DNA from: Candidatus Micrarchaeota archaeon
Lineage (GTDB): Archaea > Micrarchaeota > Micrarchaeia > Anstonellales > Bilamarchaeaceae
DNA: 64,000 nt
Direction of reading: 5' to 3'
Assembly (NCBI GenBank): GCA_038046765.1
Contig: JBBSVN010000004.1
Span: 130,844-194,843, forward strand
The position numbers and the translations under genes were made by a program. Under the pieces are notes generated by a model. That model did no database searches and was not told the origin of the DNA. It saw only the letters and a list, made by a program, of their open reading frames with translations. Positions 6,479 to 63,123 of this stretch are shown here, in pieces (position 1 is the first letter of the stretch; each line of letters begins with the position of its first letter).

Positions 6479-8281
6479 TTACTTCATTAACAATTTCTCG
6501 TAAGTTTGACGAGTTACACACGCCACCCCGTAACCGACGCCGTGCCCCCTGTTGGCACCGACATCCTGCCCGACGAAGTCGTTCCCGTAGAAGTAACGGA
6601 CCAAAAGACCGGAATATTTTTCAATTCTCCATAAACGTCTTGCGTCTTGATCATATTCATTTGTAGATTTACCAGAAGGAATACCAAATTCATCTTGCTT
6701 ATACCAACCATTTTTTGTGTGTAATTTTATTTCCTTAGTTTTTCCATCCTGTGTTATTACGCATTTTTCTCCATCAAGGTCTACCAATGTTCCAGTCCTG
6801 CAGGGAAATAATCCTAACTTCTGGTATTTCTCCCTTAATTTTGGATTTTGTAAAATCGTATCAATAACTGTGTTTGGTAAGATAACTAAACCTTGTTTTT
6901 CTAATGCAAGAGTTTGTTCTAAGTTTAGGTTTTTATGGACTTGGATTTCTTTACTTGTAAGGTCAAGTTTTGACCAGTCGGCAACTCCAACAGGAGTTGA
7001 CGAACCAAGAACTCCTTGCCAATGATGGGGGTCTAGCATTCCTTTGAATTTACCATTCTCACCATCTTGGAGGAATTTTCTTTCTTCTTGAAGTTGTTTG
7101 AGTTTTGTCTTGTATCTTCTCCTAAAAAGGTTCAAACTAGTTAGAATAACAGAAACAATAAACAGCGTAGTTAATTCTATAGTCGTTATAGGGAGATTTT
7201 TGGCAACTGATACAATAAAAATTATGACAGAATTTAAACTTACATATCCTAAAAGCAAAGGTGCAAAACCAGTTTTTCTAATCCATATTTCTAAATCTTT
7301 AATCTCCTTATCAAGTTTTTCAATTCGTGCCAAAGCAGTTTCCTGTTCTTTTTGAACTGGTTCTAAAGCAACATTTTCATTTACCAAAATGGCTAAAACT
7401 TCTCTTACTTGTGCAGCATTTTGATACCTATTTTTAGGATCAACTTCTAGGCATTTACCAATAATTTTTTCAAACCCCCTAACGGATGCAGGAGCATTAC
7501 CAGAATCAATTGCCTCTTTTAAATCTTCTTTATCCATGCCAGCTAAGAATATTCCAAGTAGTGCGCCAAATGAATAAAGGTCAGCAGATGCTGATACTCT
7601 TTTTGAACCACTAGCTACTTCAGGAGGAGTGCATTCATAATTATTAACTGCCCAAATAGTTGTCCCAGTACTGTTTCTAACCTGAACAAAAGCAAAATCA
7701 ATTAGATAAAGCTTGCCATCTGGAGTTACAATTAAATTTTCTGGTTTGACATCCTTATGAACTATTGGGGGATTTTTACTATGCAAATATTCTAAAATAT
7801 CAAGTAGCTGATTAGCTAAAGAAAGCACCTGATTTTTATCTAAATGAACATTTTCATCTATTAAATGTTTTAATGTTTTACCTTCAACAAAGTCCATCAC
7901 AATATATTGTTCCTGTTCAGTTTGATTTCGATAAGAATCGATTAATTTTGGAATGCCTACGTGATCTGCTTGAGACAAGATATTTATTTCACGCTCGGCT
8001 AGAGCAAAAATTCGATGGTCTTTTACAACGCTTAAACTCATGTCTTTTACTACAACTAATTTTTGATGTGTAATAGAATAAGCAAGATAAACTTCTGCAT
8101 TAACTGATTGTGTTGGGGAATCTTCTTTTTTATCCCTTGAAAGTAGTTTAAGTAAAGAATATTTATTCCCATTAATTATTTTTGTACCAAGAATATGCTC
8201 TGGAACTGGAAGAGGTAGAACTATTTTTGCCTGATCAATAGCAACTAAAGACCTAGTAATAGCTAATCTTGGTTCTGCCAT
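6479..8281 (-). CDS. Hanks-type Ser/Thr kinase with two TM helices and a C-terminal putative DGR target (C-type lectin-like) domain
   Basis: VVVKD, EREINIL, VHKDVKPENL, IDFA, PPE, DLYSFG; two hydrophobic segments; C-terminal domain paralogous to 62442-63083. Confidence 0.88.
   Translation of the reverse strand: MAEPRLAITRSLVAIDQAKIVLPLPVPEHILGTKIINGNKYSLLKLLSRDKKEDSPTQSVNAEVYLAYSITHQKLVVVKDMSLSVVKDHRIFALAEREINILSQADHVGIPKLIDSYRNQTEQEQYIVMDFVEGKTLKHLIDENVHLDKNQVLSLANQLLDILEYLHSKNPPIVHKDVKPENLIVTPDGKLYLIDFAFVQVRNSTGTTIWAVNNYECTPPEVASGSKRVSASADLYSFGALLGIFLAGMDKEDLKEAIDSGNAPASVRGFEKIIGKCLEVDPKNRYQNAAQVREVLAILVNENVALEPVQKEQETALARIEKLDKEIKDLEIWIRKTGFAPLLLGYVSLNSVIIFIVSVAKNLPITTIELTTLFIVSVILTSLNLFRRRYKTKLKQLQEERKFLQDGENGKFKGMLDPHHWQGVLGSSTPVGVADWSKLDLTSKEIQVHKNLNLEQTLALEKQGLVILPNTVIDTILQNPKLREKYQKLGLFPCRTGTLVDLDGEKCVITQDGKTKEIKLHTKNGWYKQDEFGIPSGKSTNEYDQDARRLWRIEKYSGLLVRYFYGNDFVGQDVGANRGHGVGYGVACVTRQTYEKLLMK
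6519..6613 (-). other. putative DGR variable region 1
   Basis: 52 of 80 nt are G/C in 6521-6600; 15 of 27 codons end in C and none in A; ends in GGGGTGGCGTG, shared with region 2. Confidence 0.7.
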
Positions 8282-8289
8282 ATTCTAAT

Positions 8290-8322
8290 ATGTGTCAAAA
8301 AGTGTTTAAAAGGCTATGCTTT
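8290..8322 (-). promoter_or_regulatory. BRE/TATA promoter shared with 63091-63123
   Basis: 32/33 identical to 63091-63123; contains TTTTAAA about 25 nt upstream of the ATG (leaderless-type spacing). Confidence 0.75.
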
Positions 8323-8348
8323 TCTGGTAATGCTTGATAAAAGAATAC

Positions 8349-8401: not shown

Positions 8402-9712
8402 CTAAGAAGAAAGCGAATAATAAACAGACTTTCCCCGCCTGTGCATAAACAAATAACCCATTTTAACAAGACCAGACAAATCATCCCGAGCCGTTCTTTC
8501 CTTTACCTTAAATTCCTTCTTATAGTAAGAGGTACTTAATTCCTTTTTGTTCGCTAGCTCTAGTGCCTTTTGCTGACGGGAATTTAGTTCAGGTTTGGTG
8601 TTAAAAATCCTTAGGATAGTAAACTCTCCCTGCTCTGTATATTCAGGCTCTTTTAGCCCCCACTCTTTGCACTGATTAAATATCTTAGTTGTACCAGTAC
8701 CAAATTGCTCAACATATCCGCATTTATACGCAGTCTTTGCAATAAGCTCATTTCGCGGTTTTGACGCATGTTCTGGTTTTTTTAATTCCTCAACAGTAAC
8801 ACCTTGCGGAAGTAGACCTGGATTTTTTATCTCTATATAATTTTCCTTAATTGAAAGATAGCAGGCACTTGAGGAAAAAAAATCCCGATGAATTATCGAA
8901 TTTATTATAGCCTCGCGAATTGCTTCAACAGGATATTCATATGTTAATTCTCTTCGTGTGCCGATTATTTTAGAAGAAGCGCGAATATTAGATAATAAGT
9001 AAGAATAGACATAATCAATCATATCAAACAGATTACCTTCTATTAGTTTAAGATCTAAAAATTCCGAACCTTTTAAGACCGCGCAGCGAAAGGAAAAATT
9101 AGTAAAGTATTTCTGTGGATTTTTTCCAAAACATATTACAGCCGCATTCTTTAATTTGCCGTTTAGCATTTCAAGATTTTTAAGCACGGATTCTGCGCTA
9201 CCATTTATCTGCATATTTCTCTGTTTCCTTGCTCTATCAATAAAAGTTAGGATTGCATTATCATCTATTTCCGATATTTGTGCGACAGAAGATTGCTTAT
9301 CAAAGGCAATTCTTTCCCAGTTTCTTTTTATAACCAAAGTATCAATTTCACTTCTACTTAGTTTCATATTAGACTTTCCAACCCGCCTGTATGCAATGCC
9401 TTTAGCAAGGTATGGTTTATCAAACCCTTCCTTAACAGATATTTTTATTATGCCCTTATCTAGTTCAATGTATTCGGATATAATATCTGGAAAAATTTTT
9501 GGGTCGGTATTCTCCACGATTATTTTTGTCAGGTTTTCAATCGTATTTTTTCCTATTGAAAGCGGCTTAAGTTTGCCCTCATCACTTACTCCTATAAATA
9601 TTTCTCCACCTTTATGATTTGAAAAAGCAGCAACACACTGGATTATCGCATCCTGGTCGCTAAGACTTTCCTTAAATTCGACAGTTTCACTTTCATTTTT
9701 AGGTATATCCAT
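8402..9712 (-). CDS. AlbA_2 (Schlafen-like) + HATPase_c_4 + winged-HTH protein (often annotated RecG-like/transcriptional regulator)
   Basis: ESETVEFKES, AFSNHKGGEIFIGVSDEG, REAIINSIIHRDF, IKNPGLL, RNELIA, EQFGTG, C-terminal ERTARDDLSGLVKMG. Confidence 0.9.
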   Translation of the reverse strand: MDIPKNESETVEFKESLSDQDAIIQCVAAFSNHKGGEIFIGVSDEGKLKPLSIGKNTIENLTKIIVENTDPKIFPDIISEYIELDKGIIKISVKEGFDKPYLAKGIAYRRVGKSNMKLSRSEIDTLVIKRNWERIAFDKQSSVAQISEIDDNAILTFIDRARKQRNMQINGSAESVLKNLEMLNGKLKNAAVICFGKNPQKYFTNFSFRCAVLKGSEFLDLKLIEGNLFDMIDYVYSYLLSNIRASSKIIGTRRELTYEYPVEAIREAIINSIIHRDFFSSSACYLSIKENYIEIKNPGLLPQGVTVEELKKPEHASKPRNELIAKTAYKCGYVEQFGTGTTKIFNQCKEWGLKEPEYTEQGEFTILRIFNTKPELNSRQQKALELANKKELSTSYYKKEFKVKERTARDDLSGLVKMGYLFMHRRGKSVYYSLSS

Positions 9713-53372: not shown

Positions 53373-53419
53373 ACTAACAAACTAATTTTTTCTTTTTTAT
53401 TTATAAATTTAGTAACAGC

Positions 53420-53490: not shown

Positions 53491-54804
53491 ATGACAGAAA
53501 AACTCATTGAATCGCAACATGTAGAATTAAAAGAAAGTCTAGCTGATATTGACTCAATTAACCAAACGGTGGTTGCATTTGCTAATAATGGCGGCGGAAA
53601 GATATATATTGGATTAAGTGAAGAGAAAAAAATAGTTGGTGTAGTAATCGGAAAAAATACACTTGAAAATCTTGCAAAATCAATAACAAAAACGATCGAA
53701 CTACCCATATTACCAAAGATATATCTTGAAGGGGCAGATGGAAAAAGCGTAATTGTAATTGAAGTAGAAGAAAGCAGAAACAAACCTCATTTTTATAAAA
53801 AAATAGCGTACAAAAGAGTGGGAAGAACTAATATACAACTAGATATTTCTGAAATAAAAGAAATGATCCTAAAAGAGAATACAGTATATTTTGAAGAACA
53901 CTCCACAGAGTTAAAAGTAGAGGATATCGACAAGGAAGCTATGGAAAGATTTCTAAAAGAATGTAAAAAGAGCAACAGGGTAAATATCCTAGAAAATGAA
54001 AAAACCTTAGATGTGATAAAAAAATTAGATGGAGAAAAAAACGGAAAAATAAAACTTGGAATTGCCTTGCTCTTTGCCAAAAATCCTACACAATACTTAC
54101 CGCACTTTGGAATAAGATTTGCAAAGACAAATACAGATTATTTTTCAATTGATTCACTAGAAAAAACAAAAATTTATCTAGGACCGATTTTTAAGATACT
54201 GGATGAAATTTGCTTTGATACTTTAGATAATCTTCCCAAAAAAGTATATTTACAGGGTTTAAATAGATTGGAAGAACCAATAATACCAAAAAAAGTAATT
54301 CGAGAACTTATAATGAATTCTATAGTTCATGCAGATTATAGAATAGCATCTAAAACTTCAATATTAATCACACCAAGCTATATAGAAATTTCTAATCCAG
54401 GCAATCTTTTAGGAATGAAGATAAGTGAACTTTATAAAAAACATAAGTCAATACTAAGAAATCCAATGATGGCAAACATCTTGTTTCTTTCAGGAAACAT
54501 AGAACAATGGGCATCAGGAATAGAAAACGCCATAAAAGAGATTTTAAAAGCTGACCTGGGCTTACCAGAATTCAGAGTTGAAACAAACTTCTTTTATGTA
54601 AGAATCAACTTTTCAGAACAAAGTAAAACAAGAAGCGCCGAATTTATTTCAATACTTAAAAAAGGTGAAAAATCATCAAAAGAAATTGCAGTTATTAGTA
54701 ATCTAGCTCAAAGAACAGTAAGAAAAGAACTTGAAAAGCTGGTTAATCTTGGAATAATTAAGAAAATAAGAAGGGGCAAAAGAATTAACTATGATTTGGC
54801 TTAA
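53491..54804 (+). CDS. AlbA_2 (Schlafen-like) + HATPase_c_4 + winged-HTH protein, paralog of 8402-9712
   Basis: ESQHVELKES, AFANNGGGKIYIG, RELIMNSIVHADY, ISNPG, RNPMMA, EQWASG, QRTVRKELEKLVNLG. Confidence 0.9.
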   Translation: MTEKLIESQHVELKESLADIDSINQTVVAFANNGGGKIYIGLSEEKKIVGVVIGKNTLENLAKSITKTIELPILPKIYLEGADGKSVIVIEVEESRNKPHFYKKIAYKRVGRTNIQLDISEIKEMILKENTVYFEEHSTELKVEDIDKEAMERFLKECKKSNRVNILENEKTLDVIKKLDGEKNGKIKLGIALLFAKNPTQYLPHFGIRFAKTNTDYFSIDSLEKTKIYLGPIFKILDEICFDTLDNLPKKVYLQGLNRLEEPIIPKKVIRELIMNSIVHADYRIASKTSILITPSYIEISNPGNLLGMKISELYKKHKSILRNPMMANILFLSGNIEQWASGIENAIKEILKADLGLPEFRVETNFFYVRINFSEQSKTRSAEFISILKKGEKSSKEIAVISNLAQRTVRKELEKLVNLGIIKKIRRGKRINYDLA

Positions 54805-58881: not shown

Positions 58882-58946
58882 AATATTTCAGCATAATAGT
58901 ACATGTAAAGAAACAAATAAAAAGGAGTGGGATTAGTTGGTTAATT

Positions 58947-59366: not shown

Positions 59367-59413
59367 GTAAACACCATATAAATACATGTAGCAAAACAAA
59401 TAAAAAGACGTTG

Positions 59414-62441: not shown

Positions 62442-63083
62442 TTATTTTATTTTTAATTTCTCATAAGTTTCTTTGGAGATGCACGCCACCCCCGAGTCAA
62501 TGGACCAAACGGTGATGGCAACAACGCCACGTCGGCCGTAGAAGTAGCTGACGTCGCGAACGACAAAACCCGAATATTTATCTGATCGGTATAAGCACCG
62601 CGCATCAGGATCAGATTCATTAGATGGTACGCCAGTTGGAATACCAAACTCGTCTTTTTTATACCAGCCATTTTTTGTATGAAGTCTGATTTCTTTTGTT
62701 TTTCCATCCTGTTTTATTATGCAATTTTCTCCATCTAAATCTACCCATGTTCCAGTTCTGCATGGAAATAATCCTAATTTCTCGTATTTTTCCCTTAATT
62801 TTGGACTTTGTAAAATCTTATCAATAATACTGTTTGGCAAAATTACAAAATCTAGTCTTTCTAACTCCAAGGTTTGTTCTAGGTTTAAGTTGTGGAATAT
62901 TTCTATTCGATCATTTTCAAGGTCTAGTTTTGACCAGATAGGTCTTGGAATTAAGGAGTGTATTTGACCCATTTGTTCTGGCGGAATAGGTTTTCTTACG
63001 ATTGATTCATCAACAAAATGAGGTGCTGCTCTAGAAATTGGGATAACTTTTGCACCTTTAGCTGGGTCTTTGTACCTAAACAT
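62442..63083 (-). CDS. stand-alone putative DGR target protein, paralog of the kinase C-terminal domain
   Basis: Shares WSKLDL, NLNLEQTL, ILQxPKLREKY, LFPCRTGT, QDGKTKEI, KNGWYK.DEFGIP, KYSG, GVAC and TYEKL with 6479-8281. Confidence 0.85.
   Translation of the reverse strand: MFRYKDPAKGAKVIPISRAAPHFVDESIVRKPIPPEQMGQIHSLIPRPIWSKLDLENDRIEIFHNLNLEQTLELERLDFVILPNSIIDKILQSPKLREKYEKLGLFPCRTGTWVDLDGENCIIKQDGKTKEIRLHTKNGWYKKDEFGIPTGVPSNESDPDARCLYRSDKYSGFVVRDVSYFYGRRGVVAITVWSIDSGVACISKETYEKLKIK
62482..62574 (-). other. putative DGR variable region 2
   Basis: 49 of 80 nt are G/C in 62481-62560; 15 of 27 codons end in C; ends in GGGGTGGCGTG. Confidence 0.68.
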
Positions 63084-63090
63084 AAGTAAA

Positions 63091-63123
63091 ATGTGTCAAA
63101 AAGTGTTTAAAAGGTTATGCTTT
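63091..63123 (-). promoter_or_regulatory. BRE/TATA promoter shared with 8290-8322
   Basis: 32/33 identity to 8290-8322. Confidence 0.75.

What the first reader, a model, noticed from the sequence alone, without database searches (positions are those of the whole stretch)
62442..63123. Second dispersed DGR-like target with the same promoter as the kinase gene
Seen: same C-terminal domain and same terminal GGGGTGGCGTG (candidate IMH-like element), with its own NNC-rich segment. The upstream 33 bp match the kinase gene's upstream region at 32/33 positions although the N-terminal coding regions are unrelated. The two variable segments differ by one codon in length and at several third positions (CGT/CGC, GTC/GTT). 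Inference: a co-regulated family of remote targets built by swapping N-terminal modules between a fixed promoter and a fixed variable domain, probably served by more than one template repeat acting in trans.
Basis: partly seen in the sequence, partly recalled or inferred. Interest (0 to 1): 0.72.

Follow-up and report, generated by a model that had tools for sequence, protein, structure and literature searches.

The report
Orphaned hypermutation target sharing kinase promoter
This gene of a small archaeon encodes a predicted binding protein whose tip looks rewritten by a targeted-mutation system (a DGR) but matches neither of the genome's two templates, so it is likely an orphaned target, yet it shares a near-identical 33-base stretch, likely its promoter, with two kinase genes that do match a template.

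Summary
The 213-aa gene (62442-63083, minus) is a stand-alone, predicted C-type-lectin paralog of two kinase-lectin genes. The genome has two DGR cassettes. Both kinases match template 1 almost only at adenines (49/50 and 50/50 other positions), so they are true remote targets. This gene does not: 24 of 49 non-adenine positions differ, no template was found in the assembly, 176 related genomes, JGI metagenomes or IMG/VR, and it lacks the post-IMH hairpin that 5 of 5 template-matched targets have. Its variable segment resembles a template type found in relatives and still looks fresh, so it is probably recently orphaned; an unassembled third template remains possible. The 33-bp element occurs only before these three genes and is far more conserved than their synonymous sites (dS about 1); a second clade of six target paralogs shares a different 90-bp upstream region. 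Shared regulation is inferred, not shown. Both reverse transcriptases are frameshifted at a GA repeat, so the lack of variation between samples says little. The scan found that repeat switch, and shared promoters of DGR targets, before on other DNA. Verdict: variant of known partial or remote DGR targets.

The parts
63091..63123 (-). 33-bp upstream element, likely the complete core promoter of a leaderless transcript (A-rich BRE-like start, TATA-like box at 63106-63112, start codon 7 nt after its end)
   Evidence: reading as a promoter rests on recalled archaeal TATA spacing
62442..63083 (-). target gene T2, 213 aa, no predicted membrane segment
62937..63083 (-). N-terminal 49 codons, low model confidence (pLDDT 31-50 in blocks of ten up to residue 40); shared with paralog C1:2147-2791 (38 of 48 identical)
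62445..62936 (-). predicted C-type lectin (CLec) domain, residues 50-213
   Evidence: (best match 5ioo, Z 8.5, rmsd 3.5, 135 aligned)
62493..62567 (-). variable-region-like segment (55% G+C against 35% in the rest of the gene; NNC/NNT codons); no template found
62482..62492 (-). IMH-like 11-mer, identical in four paralogs; no perfect hairpin 15-17 nt behind its start
8290..8322 (-). copy of the 33-bp element before the kinase gene (32/33)
6479..8281 (-). Ser/Thr kinase - hydrophobic segments - CLec gene, 600 aa; a true remote target of template 1
6530..6607 (-). kinase variable region: 16 of 28 template adenines changed, 1 of 50 other positions
6519..6529 (-). kinase IMH-like 11-mer, followed by a 5-bp-stem inverted repeat

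Best explanation
The gene is likely an orphaned DGR target: it encodes a stand-alone, predicted lectin-fold binding domain whose variable tip was likely written by a template that this genome has since lost, and it shares a near-identical 33-base element, likely a core promoter kept by selection for common regulation, with two kinase-lectin genes that match a template still present. Shown: the paralogy, the two cassettes, the adenine-only match of both kinases to template 1, the lack of any match for this gene, the specificity and excess conservation of the 33-mer. Inferred: DGR cassettes come and go in this lineage while their dispersed targets stay; a lectin scaffold can carry variable regions of different template types; this copy is frozen at its last variant and works as a fixed-specificity soluble binder or decoy expressed with the kinase sensors; the whole system is mostly idle because both reverse transcriptases sit out of frame at a GA repeat.
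For: No adenine-only template in the assembly: best non-self score -11 against 32 and 44 for the kinases with template 1; 24 of 49 and 19 of 51 non-adenine mismatches to templates 1 and 2; only two RT genes. A template-compatible pattern hit only the gene itself in 176 genomes of the order; related patterns hit nothing in JGI metagenomes or IMG/VR. DGR origin of the segment: composition equal to that of matched targets, best fold match a nanoarchaeal DGR variable protein, best match among 30 template-like segments to three relatives' templates of one type (22.9, 21.3, 19.9; 8-10 non-adenine mismatches; codon-shuffle null mean 13.2, max 20.5 of 200). A perfect hairpin starts 15-17 nt after the IMH in 5 of 5 template-matched targets and 0 of 2 unmatched ones. 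In two runs at about 9-11x no sister variable region was laid across 62471-62592, while the same method laid both kinase variable regions on the cassette-1 target. Promoter: 0-1 mismatches in 33 where synonymous divergence (pS 0.35-0.56) predicts 11-18 (binomial P 1e-5 to 2e-12); the only 3 of 70,876 TATA-anchored pairs with 2 or fewer mismatches; a second clade of 6 target paralogs shares 65-83 of 90 upstream bases, 12 of 15 pairs at 20-29% protein identity, against a median of 48 of 90 for 168 paralog pairs.
Against: The variable segment shows almost no decay (15 of 24 third positions C, as in active targets; the closer paralog has 10), which a live template would also explain. The genome is 89.7% complete and 12 of 40 contig ends are not at repeats, one of them 0.9 kb from this gene. 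The read-laying test is near its 80% cut-off, is on contigs only, and its tables were truncated. The match to relatives' templates only just exceeds the null maximum. The window kinase's own hairpin is weak (5 bp, 7-nt loop). No expression data, no regulator and no clear operator were found; the element is absent from 175 other genomes at 3 mismatches. The closest paralog (79% identical) has 9 mismatches in the element, the neutral expectation. In six relatives the upstream conservation is uneven: 6 of 14 paralog pairs reach 42 of 60 or more, the others 29-38, near the cross-genome median of 33.
Confidence: 0.5

Rival explanations
1. The gene is a live remote target of a third template (a third cassette or a lone template) that lies in an unassembled part of the genome or on an unbinned element; this is the first reader's 'more than one template in trans'.
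For: Fresh third positions; intact IMH; 89.7% completeness and 12 of 40 contig ends unexplained; four relatives carry two cassettes or a template of the matching type; remote targeting is real in this genome.
Against: No hairpin behind the IMH; no sister variable region laid in two runs; no third RT or template remnant in the assembly; 28 of 40 contig ends are at repeats; the closest paralog has a variable segment of yet another length, so a fourth missing template would be needed for it.
Confidence: 0.28
2. The 33-bp identity comes from a recent copying event (promoter capture or gene conversion between paralogs) and not from selection for shared regulation; the genes need not be co-regulated.
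For: Sharp ends with unrelated flanks; the element is confined to this genome; in the second clade the shared stretch runs into the first codons of otherwise distant proteins, as a swapped module would; the closest paralog lacks it.
Against: A 33-37 bp tract with unrelated DNA on both sides offers little homology for recombination (general knowledge); the tract coincides with the expected core-promoter span in all three copies, 7-8 nt before the start codon; two separate clades show the pattern.
Confidence: 0.3
3. The gene is rewritten by template 1 or 2 through non-canonical mutagenesis with indels.
For: Same IMH as the template-1 kinases; non-adenine changes and indels occur in some DGRs (PMC5758913, passages); a remote target of template 2 here carries a 9-nt insertion.
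Against: Scores against templates 1 and 2 (8.1, 12.7) are at or below the shuffle mean of 13.2, against 57-68 for matched targets; 37-49% of non-adenine positions differ.
Confidence: 0.03
4. The segment was never a DGR target; it is an ordinary G+C-rich loop and the upstream match is a generic archaeal promoter.
For: No template; looser versions of the promoter (7-12 mismatches) precede unrelated genes; no variation seen between samples.
Against: Fold, IMH, codon pattern and homology to cassette targets of relatives; the segment is 45/72 identical to its closest paralog where the scaffold is 91% identical; no unrelated gene comes within 6 mismatches of the 33-mer.
Confidence: 0.03

Closest known systems
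'Partial DGRs' of DUSEL4 Nanoarchaeota (Paul et al. 2015, PMC4372165; passages and section 6 read)
   Same: A target gene with variable region and cis elements but no RT or template nearby, in a DPANN genome with several cassettes; the paper leaves open the same two readings (fossil or remotely diversified). IMH core GGGGT against template GAAT, and GRA-triloop hairpins, as in the two cassette targets here.
   Different: Here the gene matches no template at all, lacks the hairpin, and has template-matched kinase paralogs with the same scaffold. No shared promoter was seen in the passages read.
Cyanobacterial remote variable proteins and CLec paralogs, lone CLec or Ser/Thr kinase-CLec (Vallota-Eastman et al. 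2020, PMC7517822; passages)
   Same: Dispersed paralogs with either a lone CLec domain or a kinase grafted to it; some with template homology, some without.
   Different: Archaeal host; kinases have hydrophobic segments between kinase and CLec; the word 'promoter' does not occur in that paper's main text.
Non-adjacent and remote DGR targets (Wu et al. 2018, PMC5758913; passages)
   Same: The two kinases meet the definition (only A-to-N differences; one about 65 kb from template 1, one on another contig).
   Different: The gene of this finding does not meet it.
Nanoarchaeal DGR variable protein, PDB 5ioo (entry title only)
   Same: Best structural match of the model among 48,161 chains (Z 8.5); nearly all of the next 49 rows are C-type lectin-type domains by their titles.
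   Different: 8% identity, rmsd 3.5 A over 135 residues; Foldseek found nothing at E 0.001; Z near the tool's caution level.
Simple-sequence-repeat contingency loci (phase variation; recalled, no paper read)
   Same: Both RT genes here, and most in the family, are out of frame at a repeat tract.
   Different: Context only; switching was not observed in these data, and the scan reported this before.

Membership tests
DGR variable protein (target), present or past | C-terminal CLec fold | tested here: met
   Predicted model, pLDDT 79.9; best match 5ioo, Z 8.5. A model, not a solved structure.
DGR variable protein (target), present or past | 3' variable region with template-like codon pattern | tested here: met
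   55% G+C, 21 of 24 third positions C or T, resemblance to relatives' templates
DGR variable protein (target), present or past | IMH at the 3' end of the variable region, differing from the template's IMH* | tested here: met
   Same 11-mer as in both matched kinases; the two templates here and 20 or more of relatives end in a GAAAT/GGAAT form
Remote DGR target (Wu et al. 2018 definition) | Only A-to-N differences from a template of the same genome | tested here: not met
   24 of 49 and 19 of 51 non-adenine mismatches; no other template in the assembly. Not met for the assembly; about 10% of the genome may be missing.
Remote DGR target (Wu et al. 2018 definition) | DGR reverse transcriptase elsewhere in the genome | tested here: met
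   Two PF00078 matches beside templates; both out of frame at a GA repeat
Active DPANN DGR target (DUSEL4 type) | Hairpin behind the IMH | tested here: not met
   No perfect stem of 5 bp or more at that place; present in 5 of 5 template-matched targets, with GAA loop in 3
Active DPANN DGR target (DUSEL4 type) | Variation concentrated at template adenines within or between populations | tested here: inconclusive
   No difference in contigs of 3 of 4 runs that cover the segment, 2 studies; the cassette-1 control was also unchanged or nearly so; contigs drop rare variants
Active DPANN DGR target (DUSEL4 type) | Accessory protein Avd available | tested here: inconclusive
   No PF22296 match; two PF05635 four-helix-bundle genes elsewhere
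Partial DGR (Paul et al. 2015) | Target gene with variable region and cis elements, no RT or template at the locus | tested here: met
   IMH present, hairpin absent
Regulon (co-regulated gene set) | Shared specific cis element upstream of the members | tested here: met
Regulon (co-regulated gene set) | Co-expression and a common regulator | not testable with these tools

The most novel reading that the evidence does not exclude
These small archaea run a genome-wide repertoire of lectin-fold sensors as a regulon: fixed 5' control cassettes (a 33-bp leaderless type and a 90-bp leadered type) are kept nearly unchanged while the coding bodies behind them diverge or are swapped, a lectin scaffold is handed from one template type to another as DGR cassettes are gained and lost, variants are frozen when their template goes, and a repeat tract in the reverse transcriptase opens only brief bursts of rewriting. 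This gene would be a frozen, kinase-less member co-expressed with, and tuning, the kinase sensors.
Probability: 0.27. Interest if true: 0.66.

Novelty: new variant of a known kind. Interest (0 to 1): 0.44.

Why it matters
Orphan and remote DGR targets are known, and so are kinase-lectin targets in cyanobacteria. What this genome adds is a graded series in one cell (cassette targets, matched remote kinases, a stale target, fresh and decayed orphans) on shared scaffolds, which speaks to the open 'fossil or remote' question raised in 2015, and two unusually conserved upstream elements that give a concrete handle on how archaeal DGR targets are transcribed. Two full-text searches for shared promoters of DGR targets returned no paper; the library lacks most subscription papers, including Paul et al. 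2017.

Tried and rejected
Template search in the assembly with adenine-aware scans: none for this gene or its closest paralog. Pattern scans of JGI metagenomes and IMG/VR: no match; these were exact-match patterns with guessed fixed positions, so a template that differs at one of them would be missed. Protein scan of JGI metagenomes: 288 stretches matched a pattern, none confirmed. Protein search: only 3 clusters, the closest paralog and two apparently frameshifted versions of the same two genes, one with an identical variable segment in protein; no other alleles. Pfam gave no real match for the protein; PDB sequence search gave nothing below E 0.16; Foldseek nothing at E 0.001. A viral scan with the family alignment could not run for lack of a conserved stretch. 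Invariance as evidence of inactivity of this gene: rejected because the control was invariant too. The idea that promoter conservation tracks freshness of the variable region fits the first clade (3 fresh with the element, 2 stale without) but fails in the second, where a stale member has 83 of 90. A third GA run at C4:124935 was checked as a possible third RT and is not one. No palindromic operator was evident by eye in the 33-mer. In one search one start codon was mis-set; one search replaces those numbers.

Full report
Observation. The ORF, the 33-bp upstream match (32/33), the shared 11-bp terminal element and the one-codon length difference are all in the sequence, and the two DNA matches exceed all 100 shuffles. 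The window is the end of contig C4 of a 1.52-Mb, 34% G+C genome in 20 contigs, 89.7% complete. Three groundwater metagenome runs of one study hold 94-97% of the region's words; one may be the source.

The family. I call the gene T2. Four genes share the scaffold and the terminal GVAC: T2, a close paralog T2par (C1:2147-2791, 79% identical), the window kinase and a second kinase (C1:23010-24938). A fifth kinase on C8 has a stop in the variable segment. Profile searches add six or more distant paralogs and 1,394 cluster representatives at E 0.001 or better in the wider library. An AlphaFold2 model from 39 sequences has pLDDT 79.9, with the first 40-50 residues poorly predicted. Its best structural match among 48,161 chains is the nanoarchaeal DGR variable protein 5ioo (Z 8.5, rmsd 3.5, 135 residues), followed by C-type lectin domains; Foldseek found nothing significant. 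T2 has no hydrophobic segment (maximum 1.27) while the kinases have one or two between kinase and lectin domain.

The DGR machinery. Two cassettes lie on C4, about 59 and 117 kb before the window: target, template, reverse transcriptase. Template 1 matches its own target, the C1 kinase (15 of 28 adenines changed, 0 of 50 other positions) and the window kinase (16 of 28, 1 of 50). Template 2 matches its own target and, with a 9-nt insertion and a few other changes, a remote gene on C1. Remote targeting by two templates is therefore real here. No Avd match was found; two four-helix-bundle genes lie elsewhere.

T2 has no template. An adenine-aware scan of the whole assembly gave a best non-self score of -11 for T2 and -14 for T2par, against 32 and 44 for the kinases. 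T2 differs from templates 1 and 2 at 24 of 49 and 19 of 51 non-adenine positions. A template-compatible pattern with 3 mismatches allowed hit only T2 itself in 176 genomes of the order, and exact patterns hit nothing in JGI metagenomes or IMG/VR. Still, the segment has a DGR origin: 55% G+C against 35%, third positions 15 C, 6 T, 1 A, 2 G of 24, like matched targets, and its three best matches among 30 template-like segments are relatives' templates of one type ending in a Trp-Ser motif (scores 22.9, 21.3, 19.9; null mean 13.2, maximum 20.5; own templates 8.1 and 12.7; matched targets 57-68). That margin is thin. T2 and T2par are 91% identical in the scaffold but 45 of 72 in the segment.

Orphan or hidden template. 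For orphan: a perfect hairpin begins 15-17 nt after the IMH in 5 of 5 template-matched targets and in neither T2 nor T2par; no third RT or template remnant is in the assembly; 28 of 40 contig ends are at repeats; no sister variable region was laid on T2's segment in two runs at 9-11x, whereas both kinase segments were laid on the cassette-1 target by the same method. For a hidden template: the segment is as fresh as active ones, 12 contig ends are true gaps, and the laying test is near its cut-off with truncated tables. I put roughly two to one on orphan.

Variation between samples. T2's segment is unchanged in contigs of runs X1, X3 (one study) and X4 (another); X6 does not cover it. The cassette-1 target was also unchanged in X1 and X4; the X2 and X7 contigs each have one unlisted difference somewhere. 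So the test is inconclusive. A likely reason is that both RT genes are out of frame at the same run of seven AG units, two of only three such runs of 12 bases or more in the genome. X1 and X2 contigs bridge the run in RT 1 without a gap. In the family, 25 of 99 genomes gave 29 RT loci; 27 could be scored, 24 are out of frame, each with a GA, AC, G or C tract inside the overlap of the two frames, and 3 are in frame. In a second, overlapping set that I did not merge, 14 of 18 scored Micrarchaeota-titled loci are out of frame with a tract and the 4 in frame lack an unbroken one; 8 of 8 scored loci of other named archaeal groups and 7 of 7 scored bacterial loci are in frame (12 of 45 loci unscored or unassigned). 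Phase variation is the likely reading; switching was not observed. The scan reported this before, also for this genome. Four searches did not show it in print (listings only).

The upstream element. It occurs three times in 1.5 Mb with 0-1 mismatches, each 7-8 nt before the start codon of T2 or a kinase; the next best place has 7 mismatches. Its TATA-like box starts 29 nt before the start codon, which by recalled archaeal spacing makes it a leaderless core promoter. Looser versions precede unrelated genes. Among 70,876 pairs of 377 TATA-anchored windows, only these three pairs have 2 or fewer mismatches. Synonymous divergence of the scaffolds is high (dS 0.94-1.01 between T2 and the kinases, 0.47 between kinases; about 70 sites), so 11-18 mismatches were expected (P 1e-5 to 2e-12), while T2par has 9, the neutral expectation. 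A second clade of six target paralogs, including both cassette targets, shares 65-83 of 90 upstream bases in all 15 pairs, 12 of them at 20-29% protein identity; 168 paralog pairs genome-wide have a median of 48, and 3 of the 4 that reach 65 belong to this clade. The 33-mer was not found in 175 other genomes, and in six relatives only 6 of 14 paralog pairs show a clear excess. Selection for shared control is the simplest reading; recent promoter capture is not excluded. The N-terminus of T2 is unrelated to the window kinase but weakly resembles those of the other two kinases (ranks 4 and 7 of 1497), so gain or loss of the kinase module behind a shared promoter and first codons fits as well as free swapping.

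How it most likely works. Shown: scaffold family, two templates, two matched kinases, no match for T2, conserved element. Inferred: cassettes turn over; targets written by a lost template stay behind with their last variant; T2 is such a recent orphan, a soluble fixed-specificity binder transcribed from the same promoter type as the kinase sensors. Its ligand is unknown; a decoy or co-sensor role is a guess.

Comparison with the literature. Paul et al. 2015 (PMC4372165; passages and section 6) describe partial DGRs in Nanoarchaeota as fossils or remote targets, with the same IMH type and GRA-loop hairpins. Vallota-Eastman et al. 2020 (PMC7517822; passages) describe lone and kinase-fused CLec remote targets and paralogs in cyanobacteria. 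Wu et al. 2018 (PMC5758913; passages) define non-adjacent targets by adenine-only differences; the kinases qualify, T2 does not. Roux et al. 2021 (PMC8144416; passages) did not cover remote targets. PMC8867640 (passages) added nothing on these points. Paul et al. 2017 was not held and may bear on DPANN remote targets and split RTs; no supplements were read. Searches for shared promoters of DGR targets found no paper; searches for Micrarchaeota DGRs and archaeal kinase targets listed nothing specific. The scan noted shared promoters of DGR targets in three other genomes (not checked by me).

Verdict. A real feature and a variant of a known kind: a partial or orphan DGR target, not a demonstrated remote target, with an unusually conserved promoter-like element shared with true remote targets. 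Interest 0.44.

Noticed in passing
G000:C4:12866-12879 and C4:71405-71418 (L001, L002); loci L023-L084: Both DGR reverse transcriptases are out of frame at a GA repeat; 24 of 27 scored family loci are out of frame at a GA, AC, G or C tract in the same loop, while scored RTs of other archaea and bacteria are in frame. Likely a phase-variable switch; noted before by the scan.
   Followed up: yes
G000:C4:124912-125822: The only other long GA run lies 9 codons behind a start codon and puts a roughly 300-aa ORF out of frame, in a sequence context like that of the RT run; a possible further phase-variable gene.
   Followed up: partly
G000:C4:73056, C4:14492, C1:53246, C7:99695, C2:115913, C16:28740: Six DGR-target paralogs share a 90-bp upstream region (65-83 of 90) at mostly 20-29% protein identity.
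   Followed up: yes
G000:C8:49823-51937: A third kinase-lectin gene is broken by a stop in its decayed variable segment; the GVAC tail continues in a following ORF.
   Followed up: partly
window 8402-9712 and 53491-54804: Two Schlafen AlbA_2 plus HATPase_c_4 genes, each bracketed by a direct repeat (58 bp at 8344/9741, 44 bp at 53415/54815); the first sits directly upstream of the kinase promoter.
   Followed up: no
G000:C4:26594-26995 and C16:22494-22886: Two four-helix-bundle (PF05635) genes away from the cassettes, which have no Avd gene; possible stand-ins in trans.
   Followed up: no
L002:2471 and 2493: Run X2 carries two substitutions in and just upstream of template 1, one of which makes a new adenine in the template.
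   Followed up: no
contig ends of C1, C5, C11-C17, C20: Twelve contig ends share one of two 53-63 bp sequences, six each, pointing to a six-copy unassembled repeat such as an insertion element.
   Followed up: no
L008, L018, L021 (G017): Three stand-alone paralogs with similar upstream regions (44-48 of 60) in a genome where the DGR RT query found no match.
   Followed up: partly
window 58889-58924 and 59372-59407: A 36-bp direct repeat (81%) upstream of two neighbouring small genes of unknown function.
   Followed up: no
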